32,000 bases of DNA, from positions 150,001 through 182,000 of the forward strand of contig NQJD01000002.1 of the NCBI GenBank assembly GCA_004284765.1, given 5' to 3'. Positions 12,149 to 32,000 of the stretch are shown piece after piece. The position numbers were made by a program, and so were the translations under genes. Under the pieces are notes generated by a model. That model did no database searches, was not told where the DNA came from, and saw only the letters and a list, made by a program, of their open reading frames with translations. The stretch comes from Candidatus Electronema aureum. GTDB taxonomy: Bacteria > Desulfobacterota > Desulfobulbia > Desulfobulbales > Desulfobulbaceae. The number at the start of each line of letters is the position of its first letter. Within the stretch, counting starts at the first letter, position 1.

Positions 12149-12168
12149 GTCGGTCGCCTGTTATCGCG

Positions 12169-12594
12169 ATGCGAACGCTCTTTAGGTTTCTTGGCATTTT
12201 TTTTATTTTTAGCACGAATGTTTTTGCAGTTTGTCCAGAATGGCCAGCAACTCTTTGCGAAATGGTTCAAAAAAGTGACTGGGTCGTACGAGGTAGGGTT
12301 GAATCTATTCAGTTAGTGAAGGACAGCGATGATCCAGAAGGCATAGCTGGATGGCTTTATCATTTGAACGTCATCACCACATATCGCGGTACTGCAAAGC
12401 CATCCCTGATAGTGTTCAGCTCAAACACCACTTCTAGGATAGTTCTTAATCAGGATGGTGACTATTTTGTGTTTATCTCAAAAGCATCTGGTGAATTATT
12501 AGAAACTGGCAACGAATGCGATAACTATTCTGAGTCTAAATACAACTTGACACTTGAGAATCAAATACTCAAGTGTGTGTCGAACTCAAAATAA
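12169..12594 (+). CDS. Hypothetical small secreted protein (signal peptide), A+T-rich
   Basis: MRTLFRFLGIFFIFSTNVFA|VCPEW... looks like a signal peptide followed by about 120 aa with 4 Cys. I recognise no family. An alternative GTG start at 12145 overlaps the pyrH stop. Confidence 0.6.
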   Translation: MRTLFRFLGIFFIFSTNVFAVCPEWPATLCEMVQKSDWVVRGRVESIQLVKDSDDPEGIAGWLYHLNVITTYRGTAKPSLIVFSSNTTSRIVLNQDGDYFVFISKASGELLETGNECDNYSESKYNLTLENQILKCVSNSK

Positions 12595-12660
12595 TAACAG
12601 TTACATCAGGTAACTCAGTTCACCTGTCTGATACCTCATGTCATATAATGGAGAAACATC

Positions 12661-15254: not shown

Positions 15255-15262
15255 AAATTCCC

Positions 15263-16429
15263 ATGAAAACGCTCGCCCTGCTCGGCTCCACTGGCTCCAT
15301 TGGCAAAAATGTACTGAACGTAGTGCGAGCTTTTCCTGACCGCTTCCGCATCGCTGGATTGGCGGCAGGGAAAAATATCACCGAGCTGGCCGCGCAGGTG
15401 TTGGAGTTTCAGCCGGAAAGTATCTCCGTTGCCGACGAAGTAACAGCGGCACGATTGGCCGAGCTGTTGCCTGCCGAGTATCGGCAGAAAATTTTCTGGG
15501 GCGAAGAGGGCAATATTCAGGTTGCCACCGTGCCTGCCGCGCAGATGGTCATTACCGCTGTGGTCGGGGCCGCTGGTCTGCTGCCGACTTTGGCCGCAAT
15601 CAAAGCGGGCAAGGATATCGGCTTGGCTAACAAAGAAACCTTGGTCATGGCCGGGCGGATCGTCATGCAGGCGGTACGCGAGCACAAGGTTTCCCTGCTG
15701 CCGATAGACTCCGAGCATTCTGCTATTTTTCAAGCTCTTGAAGCAGGCCGCCGCGACGATGTGGCGATGCTCATCCTCACCGCATCAGGCGGGCCGTTCC
15801 GCACCTTCTCGCCGGAGCAGCTAGCCTGTGTCACGCCTGCGCAAGCCCTTGCACACCCTAACTGGTCAATGGGCCGCAAGATTTCCATTGATTCCGCCAC
15901 GCTGATGAACAAAGGGCTGGAGGTGATCGAGGCCCGCTGGCTTTTCGATATCCCGGCGGAAAAAATCCGGGTGGTGGTGCATCCAGAGTCCATCGTCCAT
16001 TCCTTGGTCGAGTACATTGACGGCTCGGTGATGGCCCAGCTCGGCATTCCCGACATGCGCATTCCTATCGCCTATGCTCTGTCCTATCCTGAGCGGCTTA
16101 ATCTCGGCCTGTCACGGCTCAGTCTCTCCGCCTGCGGCAGCCTCAATTTCGAGAAGCCGGACTACGCACGCTTTCCAGCCCTTGATTTAGCTTTTGCCGC
16201 GCTGCAAGAAGGTGGGGTGAAGCCTGCGGTTTTGAATGCCGCCAACGAGGTCGCCGTAGCTGCCTTCCTTGAACAGAAAATCGGCTTCACCGACATTGCA
16301 CGAGTGGTTGAGGCAGTGCTGGCGCAGTTCGCCGCTGGTGATGATCTTGATCTTGGCGAAATACTGGCGGCAGACAGAAAGGCGCGGGAGCTGGCAGGGG
16401 AAAAAATTTTGGAGATCAACAGAGGATAA
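15263..16429 (+). CDS. dxr: 1-deoxy-D-xylulose-5-phosphate reductoisomerase
   Basis: [64 protein letters not shown]. The ATG at 15263 is preferred over the track's 15236 start. Confidence 0.95.
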
Positions 16430-18202: not shown

Positions 18203-19282
18203 ATGAACGCTGTCCTTTCTTTTATTCTCGTCCTCGGCATCCTCATCTTCGTTCACGAACTCGGCCATTTCCTCTTTTCCAAGCTCTTCAAGGTGCGGGT
18301 GCTGAAATTCTCGCTCGGCTTTGGCAACAAGCTGATCGGCAAGCAGTGGGGCGAGACCGAATATCTGATCTCCGCCTTCCCGCTAGGCGGTTACGTGAAA
18401 ATGTACGGCGAGCAGCCGGGTGAGGAAGTCGCTGAAGCGGATAAGGAGGTTTCTTTTTCGCACAAAACAGTCGGGCAGCGTTTCTGGATCGTCTTCGGTG
18501 GCCCGCTCTTTAACCTGCTCTTTGCTGTGCTGGTCTTCTGGCTGATGTTCGTCTTTGCTGGGATGCCTGATCTGGTGGATACAACCAAGATTGGCGAGGT
18601 TTCAGTCGGTTCGGCGGCAGAAAAAGCAGGTCTACTAAAGGGTGACCTCATTCTGACCATCAACGACCATAAAATGACTTCTTGGGAGCAAGTTTCTTCT
18701 TCCGTCAAAGAATCTGGCGGCAAGAAGATGCAGCTTGTTGTTCAGCGAGGCAAAGAAGTGCTGACCATCGAAGCCACTCCGGTACGCGACAAAGTGAAGA
18801 ACATCTTTGGCGAGCCGACCGAGGAACGCTATCTGCTCGGCATGAGCCGCGCCGAGGATGTGGTGTACAGCAAAGTTTCCCTGCTCGAATCGGTCATGCT
18901 GGCCTTGGAGCACACATGGAGCATGATTGTCCTCACGGTCATGGGCCTAGTCAAGATGCTCCAGCGCATCATTCCTGCCTCTGAACTGGGCGGGCCAATC
19001 CGCATTGCCGAGATCGCTGGTGAGCAATTTAAGGCAGGCTGGATCAACCTGATTCATTTCACCGGTCTGCTTTCGGTTAACCTCGGCATACTCAACCTGC
19101 TGCCGATCCCAATTCTTGACGGCGGCCACCTTGTTTTCCTCAGCATTGAGGCCATTCGCCGCAAGCCGATGGGTGAAATGGCCCTGATGCGGGCGCAGCA
19201 GGTCGGCATGGCCTTGCTTGGCACTTTGATGATCTTTGTCTTCTACAACGACATCGCCCGGCTGGTGCAGCGGTGGATGTAA
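18203..19282 (+). CDS. rseP: RIP zinc metalloprotease RseP (site-2 protease, M50, one PDZ)
   Basis: HELGHF in TM1, a central PDZ-like segment (GSAAEKAGLLKGDLILTIN), and NLLPIPILDGGH near the C-terminus. Confidence 0.93.
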   Translation: MNAVLSFILVLGILIFVHELGHFLFSKLFKVRVLKFSLGFGNKLIGKQWGETEYLISAFPLGGYVKMYGEQPGEEVAEADKEVSFSHKTVGQRFWIVFGGPLFNLLFAVLVFWLMFVFAGMPDLVDTTKIGEVSVGSAAEKAGLLKGDLILTINDHKMTSWEQVSSSVKESGGKKMQLVVQRGKEVLTIEATPVRDKVKNIFGEPTEERYLLGMSRAEDVVYSKVSLLESVMLALEHTWSMIVLTVMGLVKMLQRIIPASELGGPIRIAEIAGEQFKAGWINLIHFTGLLSVNLGILNLLPIPILDGGHLVFLSIEAIRRKPMGEMALMRAQQVGMALLGTLMIFVFYNDIARLVQRWM

Positions 19283-20976: not shown

Positions 20977-22053
20977 ATGGCAACCGTGCAATGGAGACCA
21001 GAAGTCAACGCCCTGACCACACCCCAGTCCTGGCGGCCCCGCTATGTGGCGCGCAACACCAACGGCAGCGACGTTCTGGCTGCCCGAATTGCCCTGAAAC
21101 ACCCCTCTCTGGACGAAGAAACCATCAAAACAACCATCACCGCCTTGATTGAGGAGATACGCATTGACCTGATCAACGGCGACCAGTCGTCTTTGGACAA
21201 CGCCATCACCTTCCGCCTTTCCCTGACCGGACGGCTGGATTCCCCGGATGCGCCCCTGCCGCCAGCCGAGGAATCGGTGGCGTTGCGGGCCGTGTTCTCC
21301 CGCGCCATCACCGAGGATGTGCAGCGCAACGTCCGCTTCGAGCGGCTACCGTTCGAGGAAAAACTGCCGGTCATCGCTCAGGCCGAAGACACGGTTTTTG
21401 GCCTGAGCGATGTTCTCAATCCGAGCGGCGCACTGCGTCTCAACGGCAGCGATCTCTCCTTTACTCAAGGCGTTGCGGATGAAGGCTGCGTGATCGAAGG
21501 CACCCGCAGCGGACGGACGGCGCAGAGCCGCTTTGTCTCAGTCTCGGACACGGCAATCACCCTGCTGCCGGACATCCCAGCCCAGAACGACCCGTGGAAC
21601 AACGAGTATCTGCTCTTTATCGCCACGCATTACACCGAAAACGGCACCCTGCGCACCGGCATCTACCGCCGCAAGCTGCGCAGCCCGCTGACCGTGACCA
21701 AGCTCGGCCACCCCAATCCGCCGGATGTCGGCATCCTGACGGACAAGGCCGCGTCGCCGTATGTCACTGTCACCGGCGGCACGTTGAGCGCGGACGAGAC
21801 CGTGCGCATTCAGGTCATCCTCGACCTGCACGCGGGCAGCCTCGCCTTCAATTTACTCGATATGACCGAAGGCGGCAAAGCGGGCGCGGCAGTGACAGTG
21901 ACGGCGAACGGGCCGGTCACGCTGGCAGGCTTCAGCGGCTCGGCCTTGATCAGCCTGAACGTGACGGTGAACAACTTCGCTGATCTGGTGAAGATGATCA
22001 GGAGCGGGTACAGCGGCAGGCTGGTGGATGTGCTGGTGGTGAAGGTGGCGTAA
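20977..22053 (+). CDS. Putative DNA-binding protein: HU-like N-terminal domain plus DUF4469-like (Ig-like) body, with an extra C-terminal domain
   Basis: AAGGAG RBS. N-terminus: LTTPQSWRPRYVARNTNGSDVLAARIALKHPSLDEETIKTTITALIEEIRIDLINGDQSSLDNAITFRLSLTGRLDSPDAPLP. Later: ...NPSGALRLNGSDLSF...YLLFIATHYTENGTLRTGIYRRKLRSPLTV. This parallels my recollection of the HU_HIG/DUF4469 architecture. Not verified by a profile search. Confidence 0.5.
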   Translation: MATVQWRPEVNALTTPQSWRPRYVARNTNGSDVLAARIALKHPSLDEETIKTTITALIEEIRIDLINGDQSSLDNAITFRLSLTGRLDSPDAPLPPAEESVALRAVFSRAITEDVQRNVRFERLPFEEKLPVIAQAEDTVFGLSDVLNPSGALRLNGSDLSFTQGVADEGCVIEGTRSGRTAQSRFVSVSDTAITLLPDIPAQNDPWNNEYLLFIATHYTENGTLRTGIYRRKLRSPLTVTKLGHPNPPDVGILTDKAASPYVTVTGGTLSADETVRIQVILDLHAGSLAFNLLDMTEGGKAGAAVTVTANGPVTLAGFSGSALISLNVTVNNFADLVKMIRSGYSGRLVDVLVVKVA

Positions 22054-22372: not shown

Positions 22373-22836
22373 AAGGCGTTCCGCTGCTCATAGACACCAA
22401 CCTGCTGGTGCTGTTTGTTGTCGGCACGGCTTCAAAGGACTATATTGCCAAGCATAAGAAGCTGACCGAGTTCACGGTTAAGGACTACAACATGCTGGTC
22501 AAGATAGTTTCTGGTGCTTCCGAGTTGCTTGTCACGCCGAACACCTTGACCGAAACATCCAACTTGGCGGCATATATCAACGAGCCTGCGCGGAGCAAGG
22601 TGCTGGCTGTTCTGCGCACGGTGATTGTATCAGACTCGCAGGAGCGATATGTGCCCAGCAGCGTTGCGGCGGAACGCAAGGAGTTCATCCGGCTGGGCCT
22701 TGCTGATGCTGCACTGCTTGAGATAGCTGCGAAGGATGTCACCTTGCTGACAACTGACTTCGACCTGTACAACACTGCGCTGAAAAAAGGCGCGCAGGCG
22801 CTCAACTTCAACCATTTGCGTGACCAGTATTTGTAG
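22369..22836 (+). CDS. PIN-like nuclease-domain protein (VapC-like)
   Basis: Acidic residues are spaced as in PIN domains: LLIDTNLL (N-terminus), TPNTLTETSNL, GLADAALLEIA, LLTTDFDLY. Length 155 aa. 4-nt overlap with the upstream small ORF. Confidence 0.55.
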   Translation: MKGVPLLIDTNLLVLFVVGTASKDYIAKHKKLTEFTVKDYNMLVKIVSGASELLVTPNTLTETSNLAAYINEPARSKVLAVLRTVIVSDSQERYVPSSVAAERKEFIRLGLADAALLEIAAKDVTLLTTDFDLYNTALKKGAQALNFNHLRDQYL

Positions 22837-22922
22837 GCGCGGCAGGCTGGCGGAGGTGTGCTGGCACTGAAGCCGAATGACCGTTGAATACGCAGCCCTC
22901 TTTCACCGCGCAGGAGCGCAGC

Positions 22923-23792
22923 ATGAAACCACTGATGCGGAAAACCGTTCTCTCCATCGGCGGCACTCTTGTCGCTGTCCTGCTCTTCCTGTCTCCTGCC
23001 CTGCGCCTGCCGGTCTTGGATGACGCAGCGGATGCCTACTTCAAAACCGCGATCACCAAAGCCGGATTGTCCTACGCCACCTGCCGGGTGATCAACGCCT
23101 CGGTCTCGATTATCGAAGAATCCAGCCTACATCTCCAGCCAGCTGGGGTCGGCGTGTCCTTGGCCGTCGGGCAGGCTCTTGATCCTATCGATGACCTGAC
23201 CGAGCGAGTCTCTGATGTCTTAGTCACGGCAGTCACGTCGCTGGGCGTGCAGAAGATAGCCTACGAAATAGGTATTTCCCTTGCCCCGCCTGCGCTCGCT
23301 GTCTTTCTGCTTACCCTCTCGTTGTTGCTTTGGTTCGGTAATGACAGAATCAAATTAGTGCAGAAAACAATCATGCGCTTCGCCCTGCTGCTTGTTGTTG
23401 CTCGTTTCTGCCTGCCGATTTCATCATTGGTGAATGAATTTGTCAATCAGCATTTCTTCAACCCACGCATTGAGCAGGTCAACAAGAATCTCAGCACCAG
23501 CTCGGCTGGGTTTGACAAGCTGAAGGATTTTAATCTCCCTGAACACAGCATACTCGGCACGGCCTCGCTGCTTAGGCAAAAATCATCGGAACTTGGCGAA
23601 GCATTTACAGAAGTTAGTAAGAACATGGGCAGCTTGACGGAGAACCTGCTCCAGCTCGCCTTCCTCTATCTCGGCATCTTCCTGATTCAGGTAATCGTTC
23701 TACCGCTGCTGGCTTTTTTCTTTTTAGTGAAAACCGCCAATGCCCTCTTCGGTACTAATCTCCCCCTGACGGCGGCTCCTTCCTCAAATTGA
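22923..23792 (+). CDS. Hypothetical multi-pass membrane protein (289 aa)
   Basis: The ATG at 22923 follows AGGAG and is preferred over the track's TTG at 22884. Hydrophobic segments: VLSIGGTLVAVLLFL, LAPPALAVFLLTLSLLLWF, FALLLVVARFCLPI, LAFLYLGIFLIQVIVLPLLAFFFLV. No family recognised. Confidence 0.6.
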   Translation: MKPLMRKTVLSIGGTLVAVLLFLSPALRLPVLDDAADAYFKTAITKAGLSYATCRVINASVSIIEESSLHLQPAGVGVSLAVGQALDPIDDLTERVSDVLVTAVTSLGVQKIAYEIGISLAPPALAVFLLTLSLLLWFGNDRIKLVQKTIMRFALLLVVARFCLPISSLVNEFVNQHFFNPRIEQVNKNLSTSSAGFDKLKDFNLPEHSILGTASLLRQKSSELGEAFTEVSKNMGSLTENLLQLAFLYLGIFLIQVIVLPLLAFFFLVKTANALFGTNLPLTAAPSSN

Positions 23793-23886
23793 CTTATGAT
23801 TATGCAAGAGGTCTATTATTTTGCCGACTCATTTACAACACTGTCCTTGTGTCCTTGCAGCTGAGGCGATTACGCCGTATAATCGC

Positions 23887-24483
23887 TCACAGATTCAGCC
23901 CACACAGTACCCCGCCCCCGGAAGAAAATACATCTACAATGGTCAGCGAGGCAGGCTGCACATCAAAGAGTAGATAATTGCGTATCGGTACGCCAAGAGC
24001 GAGGCAAATCATTGTGCGAATCACCCCGCCGTGCGTGACTACGCCGATATTGCCGCCCATCACGGTGAACATGTGCAGTATTTCATCGGTTCTGCGGACA
24101 AAATCTGCCACAGCTTCGCCACCGGGAAAAACAAAATCCGTATATCGCTGCCAGTCCTCAATTCGGGCCGAATCACCAGTGGCAATCTCAGCAAAGGTTT
24201 TCATTTCCCAGCGACCGAAATCAATCTCCCGTAGCCGTTGATCGTAAACCGGATTGTTGATTGAACAGCCCTGCTGCCGCAATTGTTCCAAGGTCTGGCG
24301 GGTGCGGCGCAGCGGGCTGCACTGCCAGTGCTCTACCTGCTGAAAATGCGGGAGAAGGCTGGTTAGTCGTGATAAACCGTGGCCAGATAAAGGCAGGTCA
24401 GTGCTGCCAACCAAGCAGCCTTGAGCAGCTGTGGTCGCGCCGTGCCGAAGCAGATACAGGCGAGTGAATTTTTTCTGAGACAT
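23887..24483 (-). CDS. Histidine phosphatase family protein (phosphoglycerate-mutase-like; alpha-ribazole phosphatase-like)
   Basis: LYLLRHGAT......G.TDLPLS..G, SPLRRTRQT, EIDFGRWE, VVTHGGVIR. These are the RHG and H catalytic motifs of branch-1 histidine phosphatases. Confidence 0.8.
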   Translation of the reverse strand: MSQKKFTRLYLLRHGATTAAQGCLVGSTDLPLSGHGLSRLTSLLPHFQQVEHWQCSPLRRTRQTLEQLRQQGCSINNPVYDQRLREIDFGRWEMKTFAEIATGDSARIEDWQRYTDFVFPGGEAVADFVRRTDEILHMFTVMGGNIGVVTHGGVIRTMICLALGVPIRNYLLFDVQPASLTIVDVFSSGGGVLCGLNL

Positions 24484-24565
24484 GCTGAACGGGGAGAATT
24501 GGACAGAAAAAACAGATCAATACCGCTAGGATAATTCCTATCTCGACGATACCTAAGAAGAAATT

Positions 24566-25636
24566 ATGACCTCAGAACAACAAAAAACCGACCTAAAGAA
24601 TCTGACTCAAGATGAATTGGTGGAATACGCTGTCTCGCTGGACCAGCCTGCTTTCAGAGGTCGTCAACTCTTAGCTTGGCTGTATCGGCCCGACATTACC
24701 GAGTTCAGTCAGATGACTGATTTGGCCAAAGAATTCCGGGCTATACTCACGGAAAACGCTTATATGAGCAGTTTTGCTGATCCAATCACGGAAATCTCAA
24801 CAGATGGAGCGGTGAAATTCGGTTTTCGTCTGGAAGACGGCTTGATGATTGAATCCGTGCTGATCCCAGAGGAAGACCGCAACACCCTCTGCGTCTCCTC
24901 GCAGGCGGGCTGCGCGATGAAATGCCGCTTCTGCCTAACCGGACAAATGGGCTTTCGTCGCAACCTGAGCCGAGCGGAAATCGTCAATCAAATCTGCGCA
25001 ACCCAAAACTGGATGCGGGCTAACGAAGAGCGACTGCCCGGCCCGGAAAAAAATTTAACCAATCTGGTCTTCATGGGCATGGGCGAACCGTTAGCTAATT
25101 TCGACAATCTACTTGCGGCCTTGTCCATCCTCACCGAGCAGAGGGGCTTGGATTTTTCCTCTCGCCGAATTACCGTTTCAACGTGTGGTTTGGTGCCACA
25201 GATGCTGGAGCTGGGGGAAAAAACCAAGGTAAATCTGGCGGTGTCGCTCCATGCGGCGGACAACGCCACCCGCAGCAGTCTGATGCCAATCAACGACCGC
25301 TGGCCCATCGAGGAGCTTTTAGCGGCTTGCAAGGACTATCCGGGCAAAAAACGACAACGAATTATGTTTGAATACACGCTGTTCGCAGGCATCAATGATG
25401 CTGATGTTGATGCCCGCAAGCTGGCTGTACTCCTGCGCGAAGTTCCCTGTAAAATCAACTTACTTTCGATGAACGAGGGCGGCGGCCTGCCCTACACCAG
25501 TCCGCCTTTTGAGCGGTTGCTCCGCTTTCAAAAAATCCTCATGGATGCCAATTACACAGTTTTTATCCGTAAAAGCCGGGGCGCAGATATTTCTGCTGCC
25601 TGCGGTTTGCTGGCAGCAAAAACAACGGCGGTTTGA
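24566..25636 (+). CDS. rlmN: 23S rRNA/tRNA (adenine-C2)-methyltransferase RlmN (radical SAM)
   Basis: FRGRQLLAWLY, TLCVSSQAGCAMKCRFCLTG (CxxxCxxC), NLVFMGMGEPLAN, RITVSTCG, LAVSLHA and a C-terminal DISAACG. Confidence 0.93.
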   Translation: MTSEQQKTDLKNLTQDELVEYAVSLDQPAFRGRQLLAWLYRPDITEFSQMTDLAKEFRAILTENAYMSSFADPITEISTDGAVKFGFRLEDGLMIESVLIPEEDRNTLCVSSQAGCAMKCRFCLTGQMGFRRNLSRAEIVNQICATQNWMRANEERLPGPEKNLTNLVFMGMGEPLANFDNLLAALSILTEQRGLDFSSRRITVSTCGLVPQMLELGEKTKVNLAVSLHAADNATRSSLMPINDRWPIEELLAACKDYPGKKRQRIMFEYTLFAGINDADVDARKLAVLLREVPCKINLLSMNEGGGLPYTSPPFERLLRFQKILMDANYTVFIRKSRGADISAACGLLAAKTTAV

Positions 25637-26659
25637 TCAGCGTTCTACCTCAATCCCCTGCGTTCGTAAGACATCTTTGGCAGCCATTTTTTTCAGTCCA
25701 GCTCGGAATTTTTTGTGCAGTTTATGCTCTTCAACGACCATCCAGACACAATCTACAATGCCTTCCGCGCCTGCTTTGGCCGCAGCATCATCAGCAAAGG
25801 TGACGCTGCCGTTTTTGTGCAGGACGCAGGCTGTGTCGTAGGGGTCTAACACTGGGTAAATGGAAACAAAATCGATAAATTTCAGCTTCAGCTCAATCAG
25901 CGGCTCAAAATCATTTTTTGCATGAACCGTTTCGAGAAACACCGAGAGAAATTCATTGACCGCTTCATCGATTTCAGTGGCAATACGGGTTGGCACTTCC
26001 GGTGATGGAGACGGAACATCATCATCTTCCGTTGTTTTTAGCGGTTCCACCAGAGGAGCAGTAGCAACTGGGTCACTGGTAAAGTAGCCAAGACCATAGC
26101 TGCCCCCGCTTTTTTGGAGCATGGCCAATAGGGTGTTATAATCATCATCCGCAGGACTGAGGCCGCCAGTACCCCAGTAGTAGGAGCCGCCTCGCCGCTG
26201 GCCCTGATAAAAAAACAGCACAGCGCAATCATTCCGTCCTTGTACGTCAACCTCAATAAAGCCGGAGAAATTCTTTTTATTCAGCCGGAACACCAAATCA
26301 GGCAGACTGACTTTGGTTGAAGAAAGCCGCGATTTAGACCTGCGGAAGGCAGGCAACTGGCCCCAGAAAAAAATCGAATCAGGATCAAGATAATAGACGG
26401 AAACCTGAAAATTTCGTTGGGTCAGGGCAGCCAAGACATGATCGAGCTGCTCTGAAGCCAAGGCGTGTTCTCCTCGATTCTGGGTCAGGCCTCGGACAAT
26501 GTCTGCCTCGTCAAAATAGACCATCAGTTCTTGGTCTGCGCCTTTGCCGTATAAACAGCCCGTGCCGATCTCCCCTTGCAGATGCTGAATAAATTTCTCC
26601 ACATCTAAATAATAGCTATTGAGGCCGCTCAAAAAGGGCTTTTCCTTAGGCAGAAGCAT
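25637..26659 (-). CDS. Hypothetical 340-aa protein, possibly with two related N-terminal modules
   Basis: Long ORF, last gene of a minus-strand three-gene cluster. No catalytic motif recognised. The weak internal repeat is described in findings. Confidence 0.6.
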   Translation of the reverse strand: MLLPKEKPFLSGLNSYYLDVEKFIQHLQGEIGTGCLYGKGADQELMVYFDEADIVRGLTQNRGEHALASEQLDHVLAALTQRNFQVSVYYLDPDSIFFWGQLPAFRRSKSRLSSTKVSLPDLVFRLNKKNFSGFIEVDVQGRNDCAVLFFYQGQRRGGSYYWGTGGLSPADDDYNTLLAMLQKSGGSYGLGYFTSDPVATAPLVEPLKTTEDDDVPSPSPEVPTRIATEIDEAVNEFLSVFLETVHAKNDFEPLIELKLKFIDFVSIYPVLDPYDTACVLHKNGSVTFADDAAAKAGAEGIVDCVWMVVEEHKLHKKFRAGLKKMAAKDVLRTQGIEVER

Positions 26660-26684
26660 CGGTCAGTTTTCCGGCGAGATTTTT

Positions 26685-27494
26685 TTATTCGGCTAAACTG
26701 CGGACGGGATCGTAATCAGCATCGGCGGCAGCCTTGAAGCCGCTGAGTCCCAAGGCTTTGAGTGCAGGTTCGTCTTTGGTGAACTGGGTCAGCGCAGCTC
26801 GGAGGCTGTCTTTTTGCTCTTGGGGCAGCTCACGGCTCACCGACAAGGCCCAATTAGGCAGGGGCGCAGTCTTCATCACCTCGATCACTGAACCCGGCAC
26901 GATATACTTATCCGCCTTGTGCAGAGCAGATTCGCCGATGAATCCGGCATCGGCATAACCCAAACTCACCGCGATAATGACATTTTCCTCCCGATTTTCT
27001 GCCGCCTCAAACAACTGACAGTCGCGCTCAATATTTAACCCTGCCTCATGCAGCGTCTGCTTCTGGGAAAGAAAACCGTCCGCAGCGATTTTGCTAACAA
27101 ACATGATCTTTTTCCCTTTCAGATCAGCAGCCTTACTGATCTCTGCCTGAGCGCGGCTAATGACAATGCCGCGTAGCTGGTTGCCGCTCAGTCCCTGCAC
27201 CGCTGAGGCTAGCACCTCGTGCCGGTCGGAAACCTTGACATAAAGCAAAGGATTTTGATAACCGAGAGCAATCTTGCCCCGCAGCAGCTCGGCCTCGTAT
27301 TCAGCAGAATTCGCGGTCAGGATTGGACGAATGCTCATCCCTGTGACAGCACTGAGTTTTTCTGCTAACGGCGTGAGCATGGCGGTCAGCTGTTCCGGTG
27401 GAAACAGCGGTTGCATGGATAAACTATATCCTTCAGAGGCCAATACAGGTGCAGCGCACAGCAAGGTTAGCAAAACAAAAACAGTTTTCTTCAT
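26685..27494 (-). CDS. Periplasmic substrate-binding protein, PhnD-like (phosphonate/phosphite ABC-type SBP fold)
   Basis: Signal peptide MKKTVFVLLTLLCAAPVLA. LTPLAEKLSAVTG..I......NSAEYEAELLRGKIALGY.NPLLYV resembles PhnD/TIGR01098-type binding proteins. No ABC permease or ATPase genes are nearby. Confidence 0.65.
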   Translation of the reverse strand: MKKTVFVLLTLLCAAPVLASEGYSLSMQPLFPPEQLTAMLTPLAEKLSAVTGMSIRPILTANSAEYEAELLRGKIALGYQNPLLYVKVSDRHEVLASAVQGLSGNQLRGIVISRAQAEISKAADLKGKKIMFVSKIAADGFLSQKQTLHEAGLNIERDCQLFEAAENREENVIIAVSLGYADAGFIGESALHKADKYIVPGSVIEVMKTAPLPNWALSVSRELPQEQKDSLRAALTQFTKDEPALKALGLSGFKAAADADYDPVRSLAE

Positions 27495-27501
27495 GGTGGT
27501 C

Positions 27502-28515
27502 TTAATGCGGCTTGATGGTCAACCGCTCCACCGCGATGCGGACAGAATGACGCATCCGCTCTAAGGCCGTGCCGAGATCACGCATTTCCCGCGAGCCTTC
27601 CGCTGTGATAGCCAAGTCTAACTCACCAAGGCTAACCCGGTTAGCAATATTGGTCAGGGTGCGGGCGGGACGAACAATTAGCCAGTCGAATAGGACAAAA
27701 AGCAGCAGAGCGGAAAGCAAGGCCAATCCGGCAGGCACGAAAAGCAGCGGCGAGAGGAGCAACTGCCGAGCTGTTTGGTCGATTGCAGCAGCAGAGATGC
27801 CCACATGTACCTCGCTGTCCGCCTCAGTCAGTGCTAATACTCGGTCATAAATCGGCAGGTCGCCCACGTTGATTTTCGCGCTGCCTTCCTTGGCACCCGC
27901 CTTCAGTCCGTTCTGGGCCAGCACATCGACCGGAAAGCCCTTTTCCTTCATCTGTTGGATAAAGCGGCTGTCAAATCCGGCCTGAGCATTGAAAAATCCG
28001 GCCACTGCTGTGCCTTTTTCATTCACTACCGCTGCGTAGGCCACGCCTGGCAGCTGGGCGATACGCTCGGTCTCCTGATTGACCAAGAGATAGTCTTTGC
28101 GCAGCAGCGGAGTCCGTACCGTTTGCTCTAACGAAACCGCCAAAGCCAAGCTGCGTAGTTCACTTTCATAGGCCAGTAGGCTGGGAATACTACGGAAATA
28201 AAAGAAGAGAAAGGAACCACCCGCTGCGAGAAAACTAAGGAACAGCAGTGCGAGCAGATACAGCGCAAATGGTTTACCACGGCCCTTGGCTGCTGCCGCG
28301 TTGACCGCCTCCGCCGCTGTCTTGCGACCTGCTTGAGAGACAGCCTCCGCGTTGCTATCCGGTGGAGGAACAGCAATAGATACATCCTGCGACTCCGGCT
28401 TCTCGACCACAATGATGTGGCCGCAGGCTTTGCAAGAAAATTTGGCCCGCTGGCCGGGGATGCGGCTTTCATCAATATGGTACTTTTTGGCGCAGTCCTC
28501 ACAGATGACCAGCAT
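27502..28515 (-). CDS. Membrane protein: MJ0042-type zinc ribbon, TM, periplasmic domain, TM, HAMP, with no output domain
   Basis: The ATG at 28515 follows AAGGAG and is preferred over the track's 28560 start. N-terminus MLVICEDCAKKYHIDESRIPGQRAKFSCKACGHIIVV (CxxC-x19-CxxC). Two TM segments. C-terminus LIVRPARTLTNIANRVSLGELDLAITAEGSREMRDLGTALERMRHSV is HAMP-like, and the protein ends a few residues later. Confidence 0.7.
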   Translation of the reverse strand: MLVICEDCAKKYHIDESRIPGQRAKFSCKACGHIIVVEKPESQDVSIAVPPPDSNAEAVSQAGRKTAAEAVNAAAAKGRGKPFALYLLALLFLSFLAAGGSFLFFYFRSIPSLLAYESELRSLALAVSLEQTVRTPLLRKDYLLVNQETERIAQLPGVAYAAVVNEKGTAVAGFFNAQAGFDSRFIQQMKEKGFPVDVLAQNGLKAGAKEGSAKINVGDLPIYDRVLALTEADSEVHVGISAAAIDQTARQLLLSPLLFVPAGLALLSALLLFVLFDWLIVRPARTLTNIANRVSLGELDLAITAEGSREMRDLGTALERMRHSVRIAVERLTIKPH

Positions 28516-28606
28516 AAATACGCTCCTTTCCTGTCTGCTCCGCAGCAAGAGCAGAGGCAAATCTCTCCATCACATCCGGCAGCAGCAGCAGCCAGACCCT
28601 GCTTCA

Positions 28607-28636
28607 GTTATAACGGCCCGGAAAGCCTGCGGTCAA
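28607..28636 (-). promoter_or_regulatory. Candidate sigma70-type promoter for the minus-strand three-gene module
   Basis: On the minus strand: TTGACC (28636-28631), an 18-nt spacer, then TATAAC (28612-28607). An A/T-rich tract lies upstream, and the element is about 90 nt upstream of the ATG at 28515. Confidence 0.35.
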
Positions 28637-28670
28637 TTGTTATTTTGGCGGATGCGCCTATCGACCAAAG

Positions 28671-29246
28671 TTAGCTATGGAGTTTTTGCAGCAGCCACGC
28701 CATGTTCTGCCCCAGATTGCGCATAGTGGCCACACCTTCAGCATCAGCGGCGACCTCACCTTTCTCCCGGCCCATGCCAATATTCCAATAGGAGGCACCA
28801 ACGATGACCATCTGGCCGATGGTGAAAAAATGATTGATGGAGTCAAAAACATGAATTGCGCCCGCCCGCCGACAGGCCACGACGGCTGCCCCAACCTTGC
28901 GGCGGTGCATATCACCATTAGCCCGCGAAACCATGCCGCTGCGGTCGATCAGGGCCTTTAGCTCGGAACTCATATCGGCAAAATAGGTGGGTGAGGCGAG
29001 AATGATGCCATCCGCCTCATCCATCTTGGCAATGCAGTCGTTGATGCAATCGGTCGTCACCGCACAGCGGCGGTTCTTGTTGGCAAAGCACTGGTAACAG
29101 GCGATACAGCCGTGCGGGTGCAGCCCAGCCAAATTGACTAATTCGGTCTCAATGCCTTCCTTTTCCAGATCTTCAAACACATAACTGATCAGTGTCTCGG
29201 TGTTGCCGCCTTTACGTGCGCTGCCGTTGAATGCCACGACCTTCAT
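28671..29246 (-). CDS. Flavodoxin-fold FMN reductase family protein, iron-sulfur flavoprotein (Isf)-like
   Basis: MKVVAFNGSARKGGNT (FMN-binding N-terminus), a compact Cys motif CIACYQCFANKNRRC (CX2CX2CX7C) and ILASPTY. The ATG at 29246 follows GGGAGG. Confidence 0.75.
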   Translation of the reverse strand: MKVVAFNGSARKGGNTETLISYVFEDLEKEGIETELVNLAGLHPHGCIACYQCFANKNRRCAVTTDCINDCIAKMDEADGIILASPTYFADMSSELKALIDRSGMVSRANGDMHRRKVGAAVVACRRAGAIHVFDSINHFFTIGQMVIVGASYWNIGMGREKGEVAADAEGVATMRNLGQNMAWLLQKLHS

Positions 29247-29294
29247 GCCGCCTGCCTCCCCTATATCTGTTGTTGAAGAAAACACCCGGGGAAA

Positions 29295-29744
29295 CTATAC
29301 GCCAGATGGCGGCAGTGGGCAACGGGAAAGCGAACCGCGCAGTTGCTCCAGCTCTACCTTCAGGCAGCGATCCATGATCACGGTTAGCCCAGCCTCTTCC
29401 GCTAGCCGAGCTGCCGCCTCGTTGACAATACCTTGCTGTATCCAGATCATTTTCGCACCGATGGCAATTGCCTCGCGGACAATCGGTTCTACTTCCTCAG
29501 ACCGGCGGAAGATATCAACCACATCAATTTTCACCGGCACCGAGCGCAAATCAGGATAACATGGCTCATTAAGAATTTCGCTGTGACCCGGATTGACCGG
29601 AATAATCTGATAACCAGCTTCTTGTAGATATCGGGCGACCTGATGGCTGGGCCGTTCCGGGTTCGGAGAAAGGCCGACCACAGCGATAGTGCAGCTTTCA
29701 CGGAGTATGCGCCTGACAGCAGACGATAAGGGCAGTGGGATCAT
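29295..29744 (-). CDS. CoA-binding domain protein (YccU/YneT-like)
   Basis: IAVVGLSPNPERPSHQVARYLQEAGYQIIPVNP, ...VDIFRRSEEV... and IWIQQGI.NEAA form a typical single-domain CoA-binding fold. The start is assigned to the internal ATG at 29744 and is uncertain. Confidence 0.75.
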   Translation of the reverse strand: MIPLPLSSAVRRILRESCTIAVVGLSPNPERPSHQVARYLQEAGYQIIPVNPGHSEILNEPCYPDLRSVPVKIDVVDIFRRSEEVEPIVREAIAIGAKMIWIQQGIVNEAAARLAEEAGLTVIMDRCLKVELEQLRGSLSRCPLPPSGV

Positions 29745-29839
29745 AATTGACAAAGGGGGAAAAAGACCATAATACTGTGCTGCACACACAGGCACACTGT
29801 ACAGACCGTCAATTTTAACCAGCAGGAGGTTCCTCCGCC

Positions 29840-30736
29840 ATGTATTTTCAAGACATCATTGCTGCTCTGAACAAATATTGGGCATCTGTTGGCTGCGTCA
29901 TCATGCAGCCTTACGATATGGAAGTTGGCGCGGGCACGTTCCATCCCGCCACTTTGCTGAAAGCGTTAGGGCCTGAACCGTGGAAAGCGGCCTACGTGCA
30001 GCCTTCGCGTCGCCCGACTGACGGACGCTACGGGGAGAACCCTAACCGCCTCCAGCACTATTATCAATATCAGGTAGTGATCAAGCCCTCGCTGCGCAAC
30101 ATTCAGGAGCTGTATCTCGGCAGCCTGCGGGAATTCGGCCTCAACCTGCTGGAGCATGACATCCGCTTTGTCGAGGACGACTGGGAATCGCCCACGTTGG
30201 GCGCGTCTGGCCTCGGCTGGGAAGTCTGGTTAGACGGCATGGAAGTGACGCAATTTACCTATTTCCAGCAGGCTGGCTCGCTGGAGTTGTATCCGGTGAC
30301 GGTGGAAATCACCTATGGTTTAGAGCGACTGGCGATGTATCTTCAGAAAAAGGAATCAGTTTACGACATCCAATGGAATCGCGATGTGACGTATGGCCAG
30401 ATATTCCTTCAGGCGGAGCGTGAATTTTCGGCTTTCAACTTTGAAGAGGCGAATGTTGCTGATCTGATCGCCAACTTCAACAACTACGAGCGCGATGCCC
30501 TCAAGCTGGTGGAAAAAAATCTGATTCTTCCTGCTTACGATTATTGCCTCAAATGCTCGCACAGCTTTAACCTGCTCGATGCCCGCAAGGCAATCAGCGT
30601 GGCCGAGCGGACGCGCTACATCGGGCGGATTCGCAACATTGCCCGCCAAGTGGCCCAACATTATGTAGCCCAGCGCGAGGCAATGGGGTATCCGCTACTG
30701 GCCGAGCGGCAGGCAGTGATGGCGGAAGCTGCGTAA
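29840..30736 (+). CDS. glyQ: Glycine--tRNA ligase alpha subunit
   Basis: [38 protein letters not shown] and [22 protein letters not shown] are canonical GlyQ. GGAGG lies upstream. Confidence 0.96.
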
Positions 30737-30746
30737 TCCCGGCGCA

Positions 30747-30796
30747 CAGAACAGATGCCGTAGGCGACGCGGCATTTGTTCTGATTCTTGTTTTGT
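30747..30796 (+). terminator. Rho-independent terminator after glyQ
   Basis: CAGAACAGATGCCG (30747-30760) pairs with CGGCATTTGTTCTG (30770-30783): 14 bp with one G-U, 9-nt loop, followed by ATTCTTGTTTTGT. Confidence 0.7.
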
Positions 30797-30815
30797 CTCA
30801 AAGAGGGAGGACTGC

Positions 30816-32000
30816 ATGGAGTGGTGCAAACAGCTTCTTGACGGATTGAGGTCTCTGTTGACTCGTCCAGATGTGGTTTGGAGCGGCATTGGAACCAGTT
30901 TCCTTGTTGCTGCACTTACCTGGTTTTTCACTCGTCTCCGCAAACCAAACACCGCTTCCATCCAGCACGATGCCAGCGACTGGCTGGTCAAGAACCGGCG
31001 CAAATTCCTTGGTCGCTTTCAAAGAGAGCTGAAAGACCGTCGCCAGTCTTTCCTGCTTGGGCATACCGCGCTGGAGTTAGACAAAAACTTGGCTCCGAAC
31101 CAAGTGAGCCGACCTTATTCTTTTCAGGACAGGACAGATTGCATCTGGGAGCGGGACGGCGTGACCATCGCGACCACAGATCAGCCCATTGTCGATCTCT
31201 TTTGCCGTCCCGATGTGGGCGGGCAGTTAGTCATTTTGGGCAAGCCGGGCAGCGGCAAGACCGTCTGCCTGCTCACGCTGCTTGAGCATCTGCTGCAAAC
31301 AGCGCAGGACAATGACGCGGCCCCGCTGCCTGTGGTCTTTGAATGCTCGGAATGGGACGGGCGCGAGCTTTCCCTGTGGATGGCTGCGCAGCTGCATCGC
31401 AAATACCATTTCCCAGAGGACATGGCCCGCCATCTGGTGCAGGCGCATGACATCCTGCCCCTGCTCGACGGCTTGGATGAGCTGGCAACGGAAAAGCAGG
31501 GAAGTTTTGTCAGCCAGTTCAATCTCTTCGCCGACAACCGCCCCTTGGTGCTCTGCTGTCGGCTTGAAGAATACCGCCAACTTCGGGAAAGCGCAGGGCA
31601 GAAGCTGGCCCTCAGGAATGCAGCGATCCTTCAGGATATTACTCCGCAGCGGCTCAAGGGGCATCTGCTGCGGACAGGGCTGGAGGATATCTGGACCGTG
31701 CTTGAGCAGTCCCGGATTGAGGCCGGGCAGCAGCAGAGCCTGCTGGAATTGGCTCAAAGGCCCCTGTTTCTGGGCGTGATGATCGAGGTGGCCCAAGATT
31801 TGCGCCAAGGTTCAGGGCGGCAGCCGGGTGAGACTTGGGAGGACTTCCTTTGGCGGAACTATCTCGACAAGCGGCTGAATGTGTCCCCGCCCGCGCACGG
31901 CAAGAAATACAGCCAGCAGCAGTCCCTGCACTGGCTGCGCTGCTTGGCAAAGTGGATGCAGGCGGAGCAGAAAGTGGAATTGTGGATAGATGAACTTCAG
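30816..32000 (+). CDS. NACHT/STAND P-loop NTPase, N-terminal 395 codons; 3' end outside window
   Basis: Not in the ORF track. The ATG at 30816 follows GAGGGAGG (30803-30810), and the frame stays open to base 32000. My translation shows one TM-like helix (VVWSGIGTSFLVAALTWFFT), Walker A LVILGKPGSGKT (GKPGSGKT at 31239-31262) and Walker B-like ILPLLDGLDEL (31461-31484), the NACHT pattern. Confidence 0.8.
   Translation, partial: MEWCKQLLDGLRSLLTRPDVVWSGIGTSFLVAALTWFFTRLRKPNTASIQHDASDWLVKNRRKFLGRFQRELKDRRQSFLLGHTALELDKNLAPNQVSRPYSFQDRTDCIWERDGVTIATTDQPIVDLFCRPDVGGQLVILGKPGSGKTVCLLTLLEHLLQTAQDNDAAPLPVVFECSEWDGRELSLWMAAQLHRKYHFPEDMARHLVQAHDILPLLDGLDELATEKQGSFVSQFNLFADNRPLVLCCRLEEYRQLRESAGQKLALRNAAILQDITPQRLKGHLLRTGLEDIWTVLEQSRIEAGQQQSLLELAQRPLFLGVMIEVAQDLRQGSGRQPGETWEDFLWRNYLDKRLNVSPPAHGKKYSQQQSLHWLRCLAKWMQAEQKVELWIDELQ

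What the first reader, a model, noticed from the sequence alone, without database searches (positions are those of the whole stretch)
30816..32000. Open-ended NACHT/STAND NTPase gene that the ORF track does not show
An ATG at 30816, preceded by GAGGGAGG, opens a frame with no stop for 395 codons up to the window edge. It is therefore missing from the supplied track, which lists only two out-of-frame + ORFs and antisense ORFs over the same DNA. My translation is MEWCKQLLDGLRSLLTRPDVVWSGIGTSFLVAALTWFFTRLRK...QLVILGKPGSGKTVCLLTLLEHLL...PVVFECSEW...HDILPLLDGLDELATEKQ...RPLVLCCRLEEY... This is the Walker A / Walker B arrangement typical of NACHT-type STAND ATPases. Bacterial NACHT and other STAND NTPases (bNACHT, Avs) are established antiphage sensors. 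Here the ~140-aa region before the P-loop has no recognisable enzymatic effector, only one predicted membrane helix. That is an unusual N-terminal module for this class. The sensor part and any partner genes lie beyond the window. The gene also sits where glyS would be expected.
Basis: partly seen in the sequence, partly recalled or inferred. Interest (0 to 1): 0.72.

Follow-up and report, generated by a model that had tools for sequence, protein, structure and literature searches.

The report
Membrane-embedded NACHT (NLR-like) ATPase gene
The open frame at the window edge is the first 56% of a real 701-codon gene of the cable bacterium Candidatus Electronema aureum, encoding an NLR-like NACHT ATPase with a bundle of about eight membrane helices spliced into its winged-helix domain; this architecture is already catalogued but no member has been tested.

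Summary
ATG 30816 follows GAGGGAGG and opens 395 stop-free codons. An identical public contig completes the gene at 701 codons. The product is GenBank TAA76075.1, already named "NACHT domain-containing protein" of Ca. Electronema aureum.

The NACHT call holds: Pfam NACHT scores 44 bits against a cut-off of 26.7, the Walker B is DGLDE, and the AlphaFold model best matches NOD2, NLRP3 and NLRC4.

No repeat sensor and no partner gene lie beyond the window. The rest is a ~245-residue cassette of about eight glycine-zipper membrane helices inserted inside the winged-helix domain. The protein ends 9 residues after His692 of the conserved YxFxH motif.

This matches the "NACHT+68TM-wHTH" architecture listed for clade 5 in Table S1 of Kibby et al. 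I found no clade-5 protein marked as tested. The family is large. Relatives carry TIR, trypsin, CHAT or kinase N-termini, and one sits inside a BREX island.

A finding I did not see reported: among cable bacteria the membrane cassette is swapped between almost identical NACHT backbones at the same locus.

The glyS remark is a red herring. An antiphage role is plausible but untested.

Verdict: new member of a known, uncharacterised kind, of moderate interest.

The parts
29840..30736 (+). glyQ (glycine--tRNA ligase alpha subunit). It is the upstream neighbour and not part of the system.
   Evidence: NCBIfam TIGR00388 glyQ scores 503.7 bits against a cut-off of 361.
30747..30783 (+). Terminator-like hairpin after glyQ (15-bp stem, T-rich tail). 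It separates glyQ from the NACHT gene.
   Evidence: The terminator scan found it at L001 8347-8383, which is window 30747-30783. No sigma-70-like promoter was found.
30803..30810 (+). Shine-Dalgarno-like GAGGGAGG, 5 nt before the ATG.
   Evidence: Read directly from the sequence.
30816..32000 (+). The first 395 of 701 codons of the NACHT-TM-wHTH gene. The remaining 306 codons and the stop lie beyond the window, at L001:9601-10521.
   Evidence: The exact product is P0045 / TAA76075.1.
30873..30938 (+). N-terminal transmembrane helix (residues ~20-41). It occupies the position where relatives carry effector domains.
   Evidence: Hydropathy peak at residues 20-38. AF2 helix 26-41. K/R-rich TRLRK follows the helix. 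Relatives with soluble effectors have no N-terminal TM.
30951..31205 (+). Pre-NACHT helical region (residues 46-130), part of the NACHT module and not an effector.
   Evidence: AF2 helix 46-82 has block-mean pLDDT of about 75-92. It aligns across the family, with L80 nearly invariant. It has no Pfam hit.
31227..31502 (+). Core NACHT nucleotide-binding domain as matched by Pfam PF05729 (residues 138-229).
   Evidence: 44 bits against a gathering score of 26.7.
31239..31262 (+). Walker A motif GKPGSGKT (residues 142-149).
   Evidence: G142, G145, G147 and K148 are invariant in 60 family members.
31455..31481 (+). Walker B with the NACHT signature, LPLLDGLDE (residues 214-222; D218-G-L-D-E222).
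   Evidence: D218, G219, L220 and E222 are invariant. The D[GAS]hDE signature is as defined by Kibby et al..
31560..31562 (+). Invariant Arg249 at the end of strand 244-249 (CCR motif), probably the sensor-1 arginine.
   Evidence: Invariant in A1 and A2. AF2 strand 244-249. The sensor-1 role is inferred.
31806..32000 (+). End of helical domain 1 and the first helix and strand of the winged-helix domain (residues 331-395). The TM cassette begins 6 codons past the window edge.
   Evidence: AF2 elements H341-354, H367-383 and a strand at ~389, then TM helices from 402. The A3 profile aligns residues up to ~350 with NLRC4 HD1.

Best explanation
Shown. The frame is the 5' part of a 701-codon gene of Ca. 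Electronema aureum that encodes a membrane-integral NACHT NTPase. Its order of parts is:
- an N-terminal TM helix;
- a pre-NACHT helical region;
- the NACHT nucleotide-binding domain and helical domain 1, with intact Walker A, Walker B (DGLDE) and an invariant Arg;
- a winged-helix domain (WHD) split after its first helix and strand by a ~245-residue cassette of about eight glycine-zipper TM helices;
- the rest of the WHD, ending in the invariant Y688-x-F690-x-H692.

The protein stops there. It has no repeat sensor and no enzymatic effector.

Inferred. It works as a one-protein, NLR-type switch built into the membrane.
1. The TM cassette is the sensor. It reads a signal within or at the membrane, such as a phage or other foreign membrane protein, or envelope damage.
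2. The cassette is spliced into the WHD, the lid whose histidine holds ADP in resting NLRs. Rearrangement of the bundle would therefore move the lid directly.
3. That would allow ADP/ATP exchange and oligomerisation.
4. In relatives, oligomerisation would activate N-terminal TIR, protease, kinase or adaptor domains.
5. In this effector-less version, the output is most likely membrane permeabilisation or depolarisation by the clustered N-terminal helices and TM bundles, giving growth arrest or death of the affected cell in the filament.
For: Identity:
- Pfam NACHT scores 44 bits against a cut-off of 26.7.
- The AF2 model has pLDDT 80.2 and pTM 0.73. Its best PDB matches are NOD2, NLRP7, NLRP3 and NLRC4.
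- A profile of the family with the TM region deleted hits NLRC4 at E = 1.9e-6.

Insertion inside the WHD:
- The AF2 order is H367-383, strand ~389, TM helices 402-642, H645-660, H668-677, hairpin 681-690, H693-700. This is the H1-S1-[insert]-H2-H3-wing order of a winged helix.
- The tail lines up colinearly with NLRC4 434-451 'RLKPTYKFFHKSFQEYTA', which places H692 on NLRC4 His443.

Sensor role of the cassette:
- The protein ends about 20 residues after the WHD motif in 120 of 139 top representatives, so no other sensor exists.
- The cassette is the hypervariable, recombining part. P0002 against this protein is 95% identical in NACHT and 29% in TM. P0002 against P0006 is 66% and 90%.
- At DNA level, identity to L088 is 94% over roughly codons 41-412, absent over 413-627, and 88.6% over 628-700.
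- Different cassettes occupy the same locus in L088/L089 and in L005/L090.

Conflict-system character of the family:
- N-termini carry TIR, Trypsin_2, CHAT, kinase, BTAD, HTH, EAD7 or DUF4062, followed by the same NACHT-TM-tail.
- Homologue P0024 lies inside a BREX island (MmeI/Eco57I-type methyltransferase, EAD7, GmrSD, PglZ, BrxL, SIR2).
- P0025 precedes an nSTAND1-WD40 gene.
- Homologues occur on 44 plasmids of Nostoc, Acaryochloris and Streptomyces.
- The gene's location differs among cable bacteria.

N-terminal helix as output:
- Family members with soluble effectors have no N-terminal TM segment. Effector-less ones have 1-2.
Against: - No member of this clade has a phage phenotype that I could find. 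No clade-5 row in Kibby Table S1 carries a bNACHT test label.
- In this genome the gene sits among housekeeping genes (glyQ, nadA, rlmN and, further upstream, secY, rpoA and rpsB) and not in a defence island.
- PADLOC-DB gives only weak P-loop-level hits.
- The gene is kept across both cable-bacterium genera at 50-90% identity. That is more conserved than many defence genes.
- The H692/His443 match rests on a short piece that is not significant on its own (0.5 bits), supported only by model topology.
- The sensed signal, oligomerisation and pore formation are all inferred.
- TM counts come from a hydropathy scan and AF2 helices, not from a dedicated topology predictor.
Confidence: 0.55

Rival explanations
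1. The TM cassette is the effector, not the sensor. It would be a latent glycine-zipper channel that opens when the NACHT domain oligomerises. Sensing would be done by the cytosolic NACHT or pre-NACHT region, or by a separate protein.
For: - The TM helices are rich in small-xxx-G-xxx-small motifs. Seven lie in residues 401-645 against one elsewhere.
- This protein has no other effector.
- Periplasmic loops are very short, so there is little ligand-binding surface.
- The membrane P-loop defence protein Tmn acts through ion export, and PifA is reported to act through membrane depolarisation (paper PMC13001434).
- A conserved 202-aa fn3 protein is adjacent to the gene in four related loci and could be a partner.
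Against: - Relatives with the same cassette also carry TIR, trypsin, CHAT or kinase effectors. On this reading they would have two effectors and no sensor.
- The cassette, not the cytosolic part, is the recombining variable element. In STAND proteins that is typical of sensors, although effectors also vary.
- The fn3 gene is absent from this window and from the Electrothrix loci.
Confidence: 0.2
2. It is not an immune protein. It would be a membrane-anchored STAND signalling ATPase with a lineage-specific physiological role in cable bacteria, for example envelope or membrane homeostasis, or control of cell fate within the filament.
For: - It is conserved in both Ca. Electronema and Ca. Electrothrix.
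- Its neighbours here and in the Electrothrix loci are housekeeping genes.
- There is no PADLOC family hit.
- Many STAND clades are non-defence: only 198 of 589 were classed as defence-associated in PMC13581612.
- Some relatives carry BTAD or HTH transcription-factor N-termini.
Against: - Location varies among close relatives, and the cassette is shuffled.
- Conflict-type effector fusions (TIR, CHAT, trypsin, EAD7) occur in the family.
- One homologue lies inside a BREX island.
- Homologues are plasmid-borne in multicellular bacteria.
Confidence: 0.17
3. The frame is a pseudogene remnant or an assembly artefact rather than a functional gene.
For: Only that the window truncates it, and that no sigma-70-like promoter was detected.
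Against: - It is complete at 701 codons with a stop in two independent records (Logan and NCBI).
- All catalytic motifs are intact and invariant.
- Full-length orthologues exist in many cable-bacterium genomes.
- The structure model is confident.
Confidence: 0.02

Closest known systems
'NACHT+68TM-wHTH' proteins of NACHT clade 5 in Kibby et al., 'Bacterial NLR-related proteins protect against phage' (bioRxiv 10.1101/2022.07.19.500537, Table S1 and Supplementary Discussion)
   Same: The order of parts is the same: a NACHT module, then 6-8 TM helices tied to a winged HTH at the extreme C-terminus. The size is similar (for example Micromonospora WP_047891492.1, whose module annotation ends at residue 686). 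Streptomyces homologues found here are 686 aa. N-termini are variable in both sets: REase, HTH and cyclase there; TIR, trypsin, kinase and CHAT here.
   Different: This is a cable-bacterium (Desulfobulbales) subgroup whose N-terminus is only a TM helix. I could not align it directly to the listed accessions. The authors only catalogue the type and suggest that it senses intramembrane or periplasmic signals. I saw no clade-5 member marked as tested.
Experimentally shown antiphage bacterial NACHT proteins (bNACHT01 and others, same paper)
   Same: The NACHT module and the requirement for Walker A in those proteins. Both are single-gene systems with a rapidly diversifying region C-terminal to the NTPase.
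   Different: Those proteins are soluble. They have short C-terminal domains or repeats and usually enzymatic N-termini. This one is polytopic in the membrane, and its variable part is a TM cassette inside the WHD.
Animal NLRs NLRC4, NOD2 and NLRP3 (solved structures)
   Same: They are the best structural matches. The profile hits NLRC4 from Walker A through HD1, and the tail motif matches the NLRC4 WHD segment that contains His443.
   Different: This protein has no LRR sensor, no CARD or PYD, and a TM insertion in the WHD. Sequence identity is only about 12-20%.
KAP NTPases (PifA, Kidins220) and YobI/Tmn membrane P-loop NTPases
   Same: They are P-loop NTPases with TM helices built into one polypeptide. 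PifA and Tmn are antiphage and act at the membrane (PMC13001434; Aravind 2004, cited).
   Different: They belong to different P-loop families. In YobI the two TM helices lie inside the P-loop domain. Here nothing interrupts Walker A to Walker B, and the insert is in the WHD. There is no KAP or Tmn profile hit.
Plant CC-NLR resistosomes such as ZAR1 (from my own knowledge, not tested here)
   Same: A STAND switch whose N-terminal helix, rather than an enzyme, is the output and acts in a membrane after oligomerisation.
   Different: ZAR1 is an NB-ARC protein, is soluble until activated, and has an LRR sensor. The analogy is a mechanistic lead only.

Membership tests
NACHT clade of STAND NTPases | Profile match to the NACHT domain above the curated threshold | tested here: met
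   PF05729 scores 44 bits (window part) and 42.6 bits (full length) against a gathering score of 26.7.
NACHT clade of STAND NTPases | Walker A GxxxxGK[ST] and Walker B with the D[GAS]hDE signature | tested here: met
   GKPGSGKT at 142-149 and LLDGLDE with D218-G-L-D-E222. These residues are invariant in 60 relatives. The signature is as stated by Kibby et al..
NACHT clade of STAND NTPases | NBD-HD1-WHD fold resembling solved NLRs | tested here: met
   The top Foldseek hits are NOD2 (E = 1.2e-6), NLRP7, NLRP3 and NLRC4. TM-scores are low (~0.3) because of the TM insert.
NACHT clade of STAND NTPases | C-terminal winged-helix domain with a conserved histidine that contacts the nucleotide | tested here: inconclusive
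   The AF2 topology is H-S-[insert]-H-H-hairpin. Y688, F690 and H692 are invariant. The tail aligns colinearly with NLRC4 434-451, which contains His443, but that piece is not significant on its own. Contact with nucleotide was not modelled.
Classical tripartite STAND/Avs defence proteins (effector - NTPase - repeat sensor) | C-terminal repeat sensor (TPR, WD40, LRR, HEAT) or an FGS domain | tested here: not met
   The protein ends 9 residues after H692 of the WHD motif. There are no repeat-domain Pfam hits.
Classical tripartite STAND/Avs defence proteins (effector - NTPase - repeat sensor) | Recognisable N-terminal effector domain | tested here: not met
   Residues 1-130 give no Pfam, NCBIfam or PADLOC hit. 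They hold only a TM helix and a long helix. Relatives do carry such effectors.
Kibby et al. clade 5 'NACHT+68TM-wHTH' | NACHT followed by 6-8 TM helices joined to a terminal wHTH | tested here: met
   There are 7 hydropathy peaks and about 8 AF2 helices in residues 402-645, followed by the wHTH remainder. Related cassette types of 189 aa have 5-6 hydropathy peaks.
Kibby et al. clade 5 'NACHT+68TM-wHTH' | Phylogenetic grouping with the listed clade-5 sequences | not testable with these tools
   The listed accessions (WP_047891492.1, WP_012157841.1, WP_141977697.1, TCO55719.1) could not be fetched. None appeared among the cluster members of ten homologues.
KAP / YobI (Tmn) membrane P-loop NTPases | TM helices inserted within or next to a KAP- or YobI-type P-loop domain, with a profile match | tested here: not met
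   There is no hydrophobic segment between Walker A (142) and Walker B (222). No KAP_NTPase hit in Pfam at E <= 1. No Tmn hit in PADLOC at E <= 0.01.
Known antiphage defence systems (PADLOC-DB v2) | Significant full-length match to a defence-system model | tested here: not met
   The best hit is PDC-S60 at E = 1e-5, covering residues 138-276 only (P-loop level).
Known antiphage defence systems (PADLOC-DB v2) | Protection against phage that depends on Walker A | not testable with these tools
   This needs an experiment.

The most novel reading that the evidence does not exclude
The multi-TM cassette would be a membrane-embedded counterpart of LRR/TPR sensor arrays. It would be a tandem array of glycine-zipper TM hairpins, shuffled by recombination between NLR backbones, that recognises foreign membrane proteins or envelope damage from within the bilayer. 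Because it is spliced into the winged-helix lid, it would trigger nucleotide exchange directly. In the effector-less cable-bacterium form, the N-terminal helices would then assemble into a resistosome-like pore. That would be the first NLR-type receptor shown to sense inside a membrane.
Probability: 0.25. Interest if true: 0.7.

Novelty: new member of a known kind. Interest (0 to 1): 0.4.

Why it matters
NLR-type receptors are known as soluble cytosolic sensors. This family, with more than a thousand 50%-identity clusters, builds the sensor position out of membrane helices spliced into the domain that locks the nucleotide. It could show how STAND switches read signals inside the bilayer.

The cassette swapping between near-identical backbones seen here gives a natural set of chimeras for testing whether the membrane part sets specificity.

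The family is concentrated in multicellular bacteria: cable bacteria, filamentous cyanobacteria, actinomycetes and Chloroflexota. That fits the idea that such systems protect filaments by sacrificing single cells.

For this particular window the practical message is modest. The gene is real and complete just beyond the edge, it is already annotated as NACHT, and it has nothing to do with glyS.

Tried and rejected
I used the identical database protein P0045 instead.
- The afdb50 fold library was unavailable.
- A single-sequence phmmer search of a TM-deleted construct against PDB gave only P-loop-level Cdc6/ORC hits. A 15-sequence profile was needed to reach NLRC4.
- Cluster look-up of ten homologues gave no overlap with the accessions in Kibby Table S1, so clade-5 membership rests on architecture.
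- The genomic context of the Ktedonobacter homologue P0088 was not on record.
- There were no homologues in 50,697 phage records.
- A literature search for NACHT in cable bacteria gave nothing relevant. Kaur et al. 2020 does not describe this architecture in its main text.
- I rejected the idea that the gene displaced glyS. glyQ and glyS are already unlinked in the nearest Desulfobulbales relatives, which have no NACHT gene at glyQ.
- I rejected KAP and YobI/Tmn membership because the insert site differs and there is no profile hit.
- I considered co-transcription with glyQ unlikely because of the strong hairpin at 30747-30783. No promoter was identified either.
- The internal-repeat test of the cassette by hhalign was positive: units 487-570 and 571-645 gave probability 95% and E = 2e-8, against 0.1% for column-shuffled controls. 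I give it limited weight because TM composition and GLxxGL periodicity can inflate such scores.
Full report
OBSERVATION

The sequence shows GAGGGAGG at 30803-30810 and ATG at 30816. The ORF tool leaves out frames that run off the source.

The upstream ORF 29840-30736 is glyQ (TIGR00388, 503.7 bits). Looking up the exact GlyQ protein returned Logan contig SRR14559658_75 (L001). This contig is 100% identical to window 22401-32000 over 9600 nt and extends 4382 nt further. On it the frame closes at codon 702 (L001:8416-10521, 701 aa).

The exact product is in NCBI as TAA76075.1 / CAK8713532.1 (UniProt A0A521G4X4), named [quoted passage not shown], on a 2.94-Mb contig. The window therefore comes from a freshwater cable bacterium, and the gene is already annotated publicly.

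IDENTITY

- Pfam NACHT matches residues 138-229 at 44 bits against a gathering score of 26.7. The other hits are generic P-loop families below their thresholds.
- Walker A is GKPGSGKT (142-149).
- Walker B is LLDGLDE. It carries the D[GAS]hDE signature that Kibby et al. use to define NACHT.
- These residues, together with R249, are invariant in a 60-sequence family alignment.
- An AlphaFold2 model built on that alignment has mean pLDDT 80.2 and pTM 0.73. Its best PDB matches are NOD2, NLRP7, NLRP3 and NLRC4.

The NACHT call is right.

WHAT LIES BEYOND THE WINDOW

There is no repeat sensor.

Residues ~400-645 contain seven hydropathy peaks. In the model they form about eight helices: 402-445 (long enough for two passes), 450-469, 471-484, 504-535, 542-570, 579-614 and 625-642. 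They are rich in GLxxGLxxG motifs: seven small-xxx-G-xxx-small motifs lie inside the region against one outside it.

The loops with the most Lys/Arg (485-503 and 571-589) fall on the side that an even pass count puts in the cytoplasm. This agrees with the positive-inside rule and is my inference from the sequence.

After the last helix comes LQHYLLRLCLRWEGQLPLRFVSWLEAMQQRKVLQQVGGSYHFLHKQLQEYLAR, and then the stop codon.

In the model the elements run in this order:
1. helix 367-383;
2. a short strand at ~389;
3. the TM block;
4. helix 645-660;
5. helix 668-677;
6. a beta-hairpin at 681-690;
7. helix 693-700.

This is the order of a winged helix with the TM block inserted after its first helix and strand.

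I also built a profile of 15 family members with the TM block deleted (A3). It hits NLRC4 at E = 1.9e-6 from Walker A through helical domain 1. It also places the tail 'rvGgsYrFlHklLleyla' on NLRC4 434-451 'RLKPTYKFFHKSFQEYTA'. That segment contains His443. From my own knowledge of the NLRC4 structure, His443 is the WHD histidine that contacts ADP in the autoinhibited state. The short piece is not significant alone, so I treat H692 = His443 as likely but not proven.

THE FAMILY

The same plan recurs at 25-35% identity in Leptolyngbya, Trichocoleus, Hassallia, Ktedonobacter, Chloroflexota, Streptomyces, Nonomuraea, Kutzneria and many metagenomes.

A full scan of 1.84 billion cluster representatives gave 1333 hits at E <= 1e-30. 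Of the 139 new top representatives, 120 have a Walker A, at least three (mostly 5-8) later hydrophobic segments, and a [YFW]xFxH motif about 20 residues from the C-terminus.

Many members carry N-terminal domains that are typical of conflict systems: TIR, Trypsin_2, CHAT, protein kinase, BTAD, HTH, EAD7 and DUF4062. These are followed by the same NACHT-TM-tail. Such proteins have no N-terminal TM helix. Members without a soluble N-terminal domain often have 1-2 N-terminal TM helices, as here.

Homologues lie on 44 plasmids of Nostoc, Acaryochloris, Tolypothrix and Streptomyces, and on no phage record.

WHAT IS ALREADY KNOWN

Kibby et al. [quoted passage not shown] Their Table S1 lists, in clade 5, a domain called '68TM-wHTH' in these architectures:
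- NACHT+68TM-wHTH;
- REase+NACHT+68TM-wHTH;
- TRPR-HTH+NACHT+68TM-wHTH;
- ACYC+68TM-wHTH.

No clade-5 row carries a bNACHT test label. The architecture is therefore catalogued but uncharacterised. I could not fetch those accessions to test phylogenetic membership directly.

The nearest characterised functional analogues are the KAP and YobI membrane P-loop NTPases. Tmn is a YobI-family decamer that exports Mg2+ on sensing phage RIIB, and PifA is reported to depolarise the membrane (PMC13001434). This protein is not a member of either family. Nothing interrupts its P-loop domain, and no KAP or Tmn profile matches it.

GENOMIC CONTEXT

In this genome the gene lies between glyQ and a convergent nadA. 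A 15-bp-stem terminator-like hairpin after glyQ (window 30747-30783) separates the two genes. The window as a whole is core chromosome, with secY, map, rpoA, rpsB, pyrH, uppS, dxr, rseP and rlmN. No partner gene is evident.

The G+C content of the gene (0.55-0.61) is slightly above that of its flanks (0.49-0.56).

In two Electrothrix genomes the orthologue lies between a 2-hydroxyacid dehydrogenase gene and small ORFs, an ion-channel gene and aconitase. In Electronema-like genomes it lies either after a prepilin peptidase gene or inside a molybdate-transporter cluster. The position is therefore not conserved.

A distant homologue (P0024) sits inside a BREX island, between GmrSD and PglZ, with an EAD7 protein, BrxL and SIR2 nearby. 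Another (P0025) overlaps the start of an nSTAND1-WD40 gene.

THE glyS REMARK

glyS directly follows glyQ in 68 of the 80 glyQ loci fetched from other species. It does not in the four closest relatives (Desulfocapsaceae, Desulfofustis, Desulforhopalus and one unnamed MAG). Three of those four keep the CoA-binding gene upstream of glyQ, but none has glyS, NACHT or nadA downstream.

The glyQ/glyS split is a feature of the lineage. The NACHT gene did not displace glyS.

A FINDING I DID NOT SEE REPORTED: CASSETTE SWAPPING

Among cable-bacterium proteins, the cytosolic part and the TM cassette have conflicting relationships:

| Pair | Identity in NACHT+HD (131-400) | Identity in TM cassette (401-645) |
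|---|---|---|
| P0002 vs this protein | 95% | 29% |
| P0002 vs P0006 | 66% | 90% |
| P0051 vs this protein | 93% | 31% |
| P0051 vs P0069 | 52% | 71% |

At least three cassette types exist, of about 245, 189 and 275 residues.

At DNA level the gene is 94% identical to that of L088 over roughly codons 41-412. Nothing aligns over 413-627, and identity returns at 88.6% over 628-700. L090 behaves in the same way.

Different cassettes also occupy the same syntenic locus. L088 and L089 carry them between the A24 peptidase gene and an fn3 gene. L005 and L090 carry them in the mod cluster. The first ~40 codons, which encode the N-terminal TM helix, also fail to align at DNA level.

So the membrane-embedded parts are the variable, recombining modules on a conserved cytosolic engine.

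Profile self-comparison suggests that the cassette is itself a tandem array of related hairpin units. Units 487-570 and 571-645 gave probability 95% and E = 2e-8, against 0.1% for column-shuffled controls. TM composition bias makes this only suggestive.

MECHANISM

Shown:
- a NACHT NTPase with intact catalytic motifs;
- polytopic membrane topology;
- a TM cassette inserted in the WHD;
- no other sensor or effector in this protein;
- a cassette that is hypervariable and exchanged between backbones.

Inferred:
- The cassette is the sensor. It stands where STAND sensors attach, and it is the only variable candidate shared with relatives that carry effectors.
- Its rearrangement moves the WHD lid, frees the ADP-locked state and allows ATP-dependent oligomerisation.
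- In this effector-less form, the output is membrane damage caused by the clustered N-terminal helices and TM bundles. This is analogous to resistosome or Tmn/PifA-type action.

The main rival makes the cassette the effector. A second rival is a non-immune role specific to cable bacteria, which the conservation across both genera and the housekeeping context leave open.

VERDICT

The NACHT identification is supported. The gene is a new member of a known, catalogued but untested kind. The cassette-swapping pattern is the most useful new point and gives a direct experimental handle.

Noticed in passing
L005:6937-7545, L088:6555-7163, L089:10150-10758, L090:1911-2519 (all on the - strand): A 202-aa fn3-domain protein, 89-98% identical between loci, lies directly next to the NACHT-TM gene in four Electronema-like loci from two different genomic contexts. 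It is convergent in one context and divergent in the other. It is absent from this window and from the Electrothrix loci. It could be a partner, or a marker of rearrangement around the gene.
   Followed up: partly
window 16432-18171 (+): A 579-aa ORF between dxr (15236-16429) and rseP (18203-19282) has no Pfam hit at E <= 1e-5 and no NCBIfam hit at E <= 0.001, although it sits in a highly conserved housekeeping cluster.
   Followed up: partly
window 20977-22053 (+), 22884-23792 (+), 25637-26659 (-): Three further ORFs of 358, 302 and 340 aa have no NCBIfam hit. For the latter two, the precomputed gene calls on L001 also list no Pfam family.
   Followed up: partly
window 27502-28560 (-): A 352-aa protein has an N-terminal MJ0042-type zinc ribbon and a HAMP-like region. 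It resembles sensor kinases only weakly, around the HAMP region. It may be a signalling protein without a kinase domain.
   Followed up: no
window 29295-30736 and loci L006-L009: glyQ and glyS are unlinked in this genome and in its closest Desulfobulbales relatives, while 68 of 80 other glyQ loci keep glyS adjacent. The CoA-binding gene upstream of glyQ is conserved in L007-L009, but the downstream side is a synteny breakpoint.
   Followed up: yes
L087:1-16046: A distant family member (P0024) is embedded in a BREX locus. The gene order is MmeI/Eco57I-type methyltransferase, an EAD7-domain protein, GmrSD_N, NACHT-TM, PglZ, BrxL, SIR2_2.
   Followed up: partly
L088:5811-6485 and 11884-13768: In one relative, a DUF4160 gene and a 131-aa gene are inserted between the NACHT gene and fn3. 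A phage-type integrase gene and a DUF6602 gene lie about 6 kb downstream, which hints at a mobile element near that locus.
   Followed up: no
proteins P0142 (1723 aa), P0149 (1717 aa), P0144 (1431 aa), P0143 (1498 aa): Some family representatives are two to three times the usual length and match the query in 3-5 separate stretches. This suggests tandem NACHT-TM modules within one polypeptide.
   Followed up: no
L002:10268-11267 and L004:10105-10476: In the two Electrothrix genomes the NACHT-TM gene is followed on the same strand by one to three small ORFs (59-160 aa) without Pfam hits, and then by an ion-channel gene (Ion_trans). I did not test whether the small ORFs are partners.
   Followed up: no
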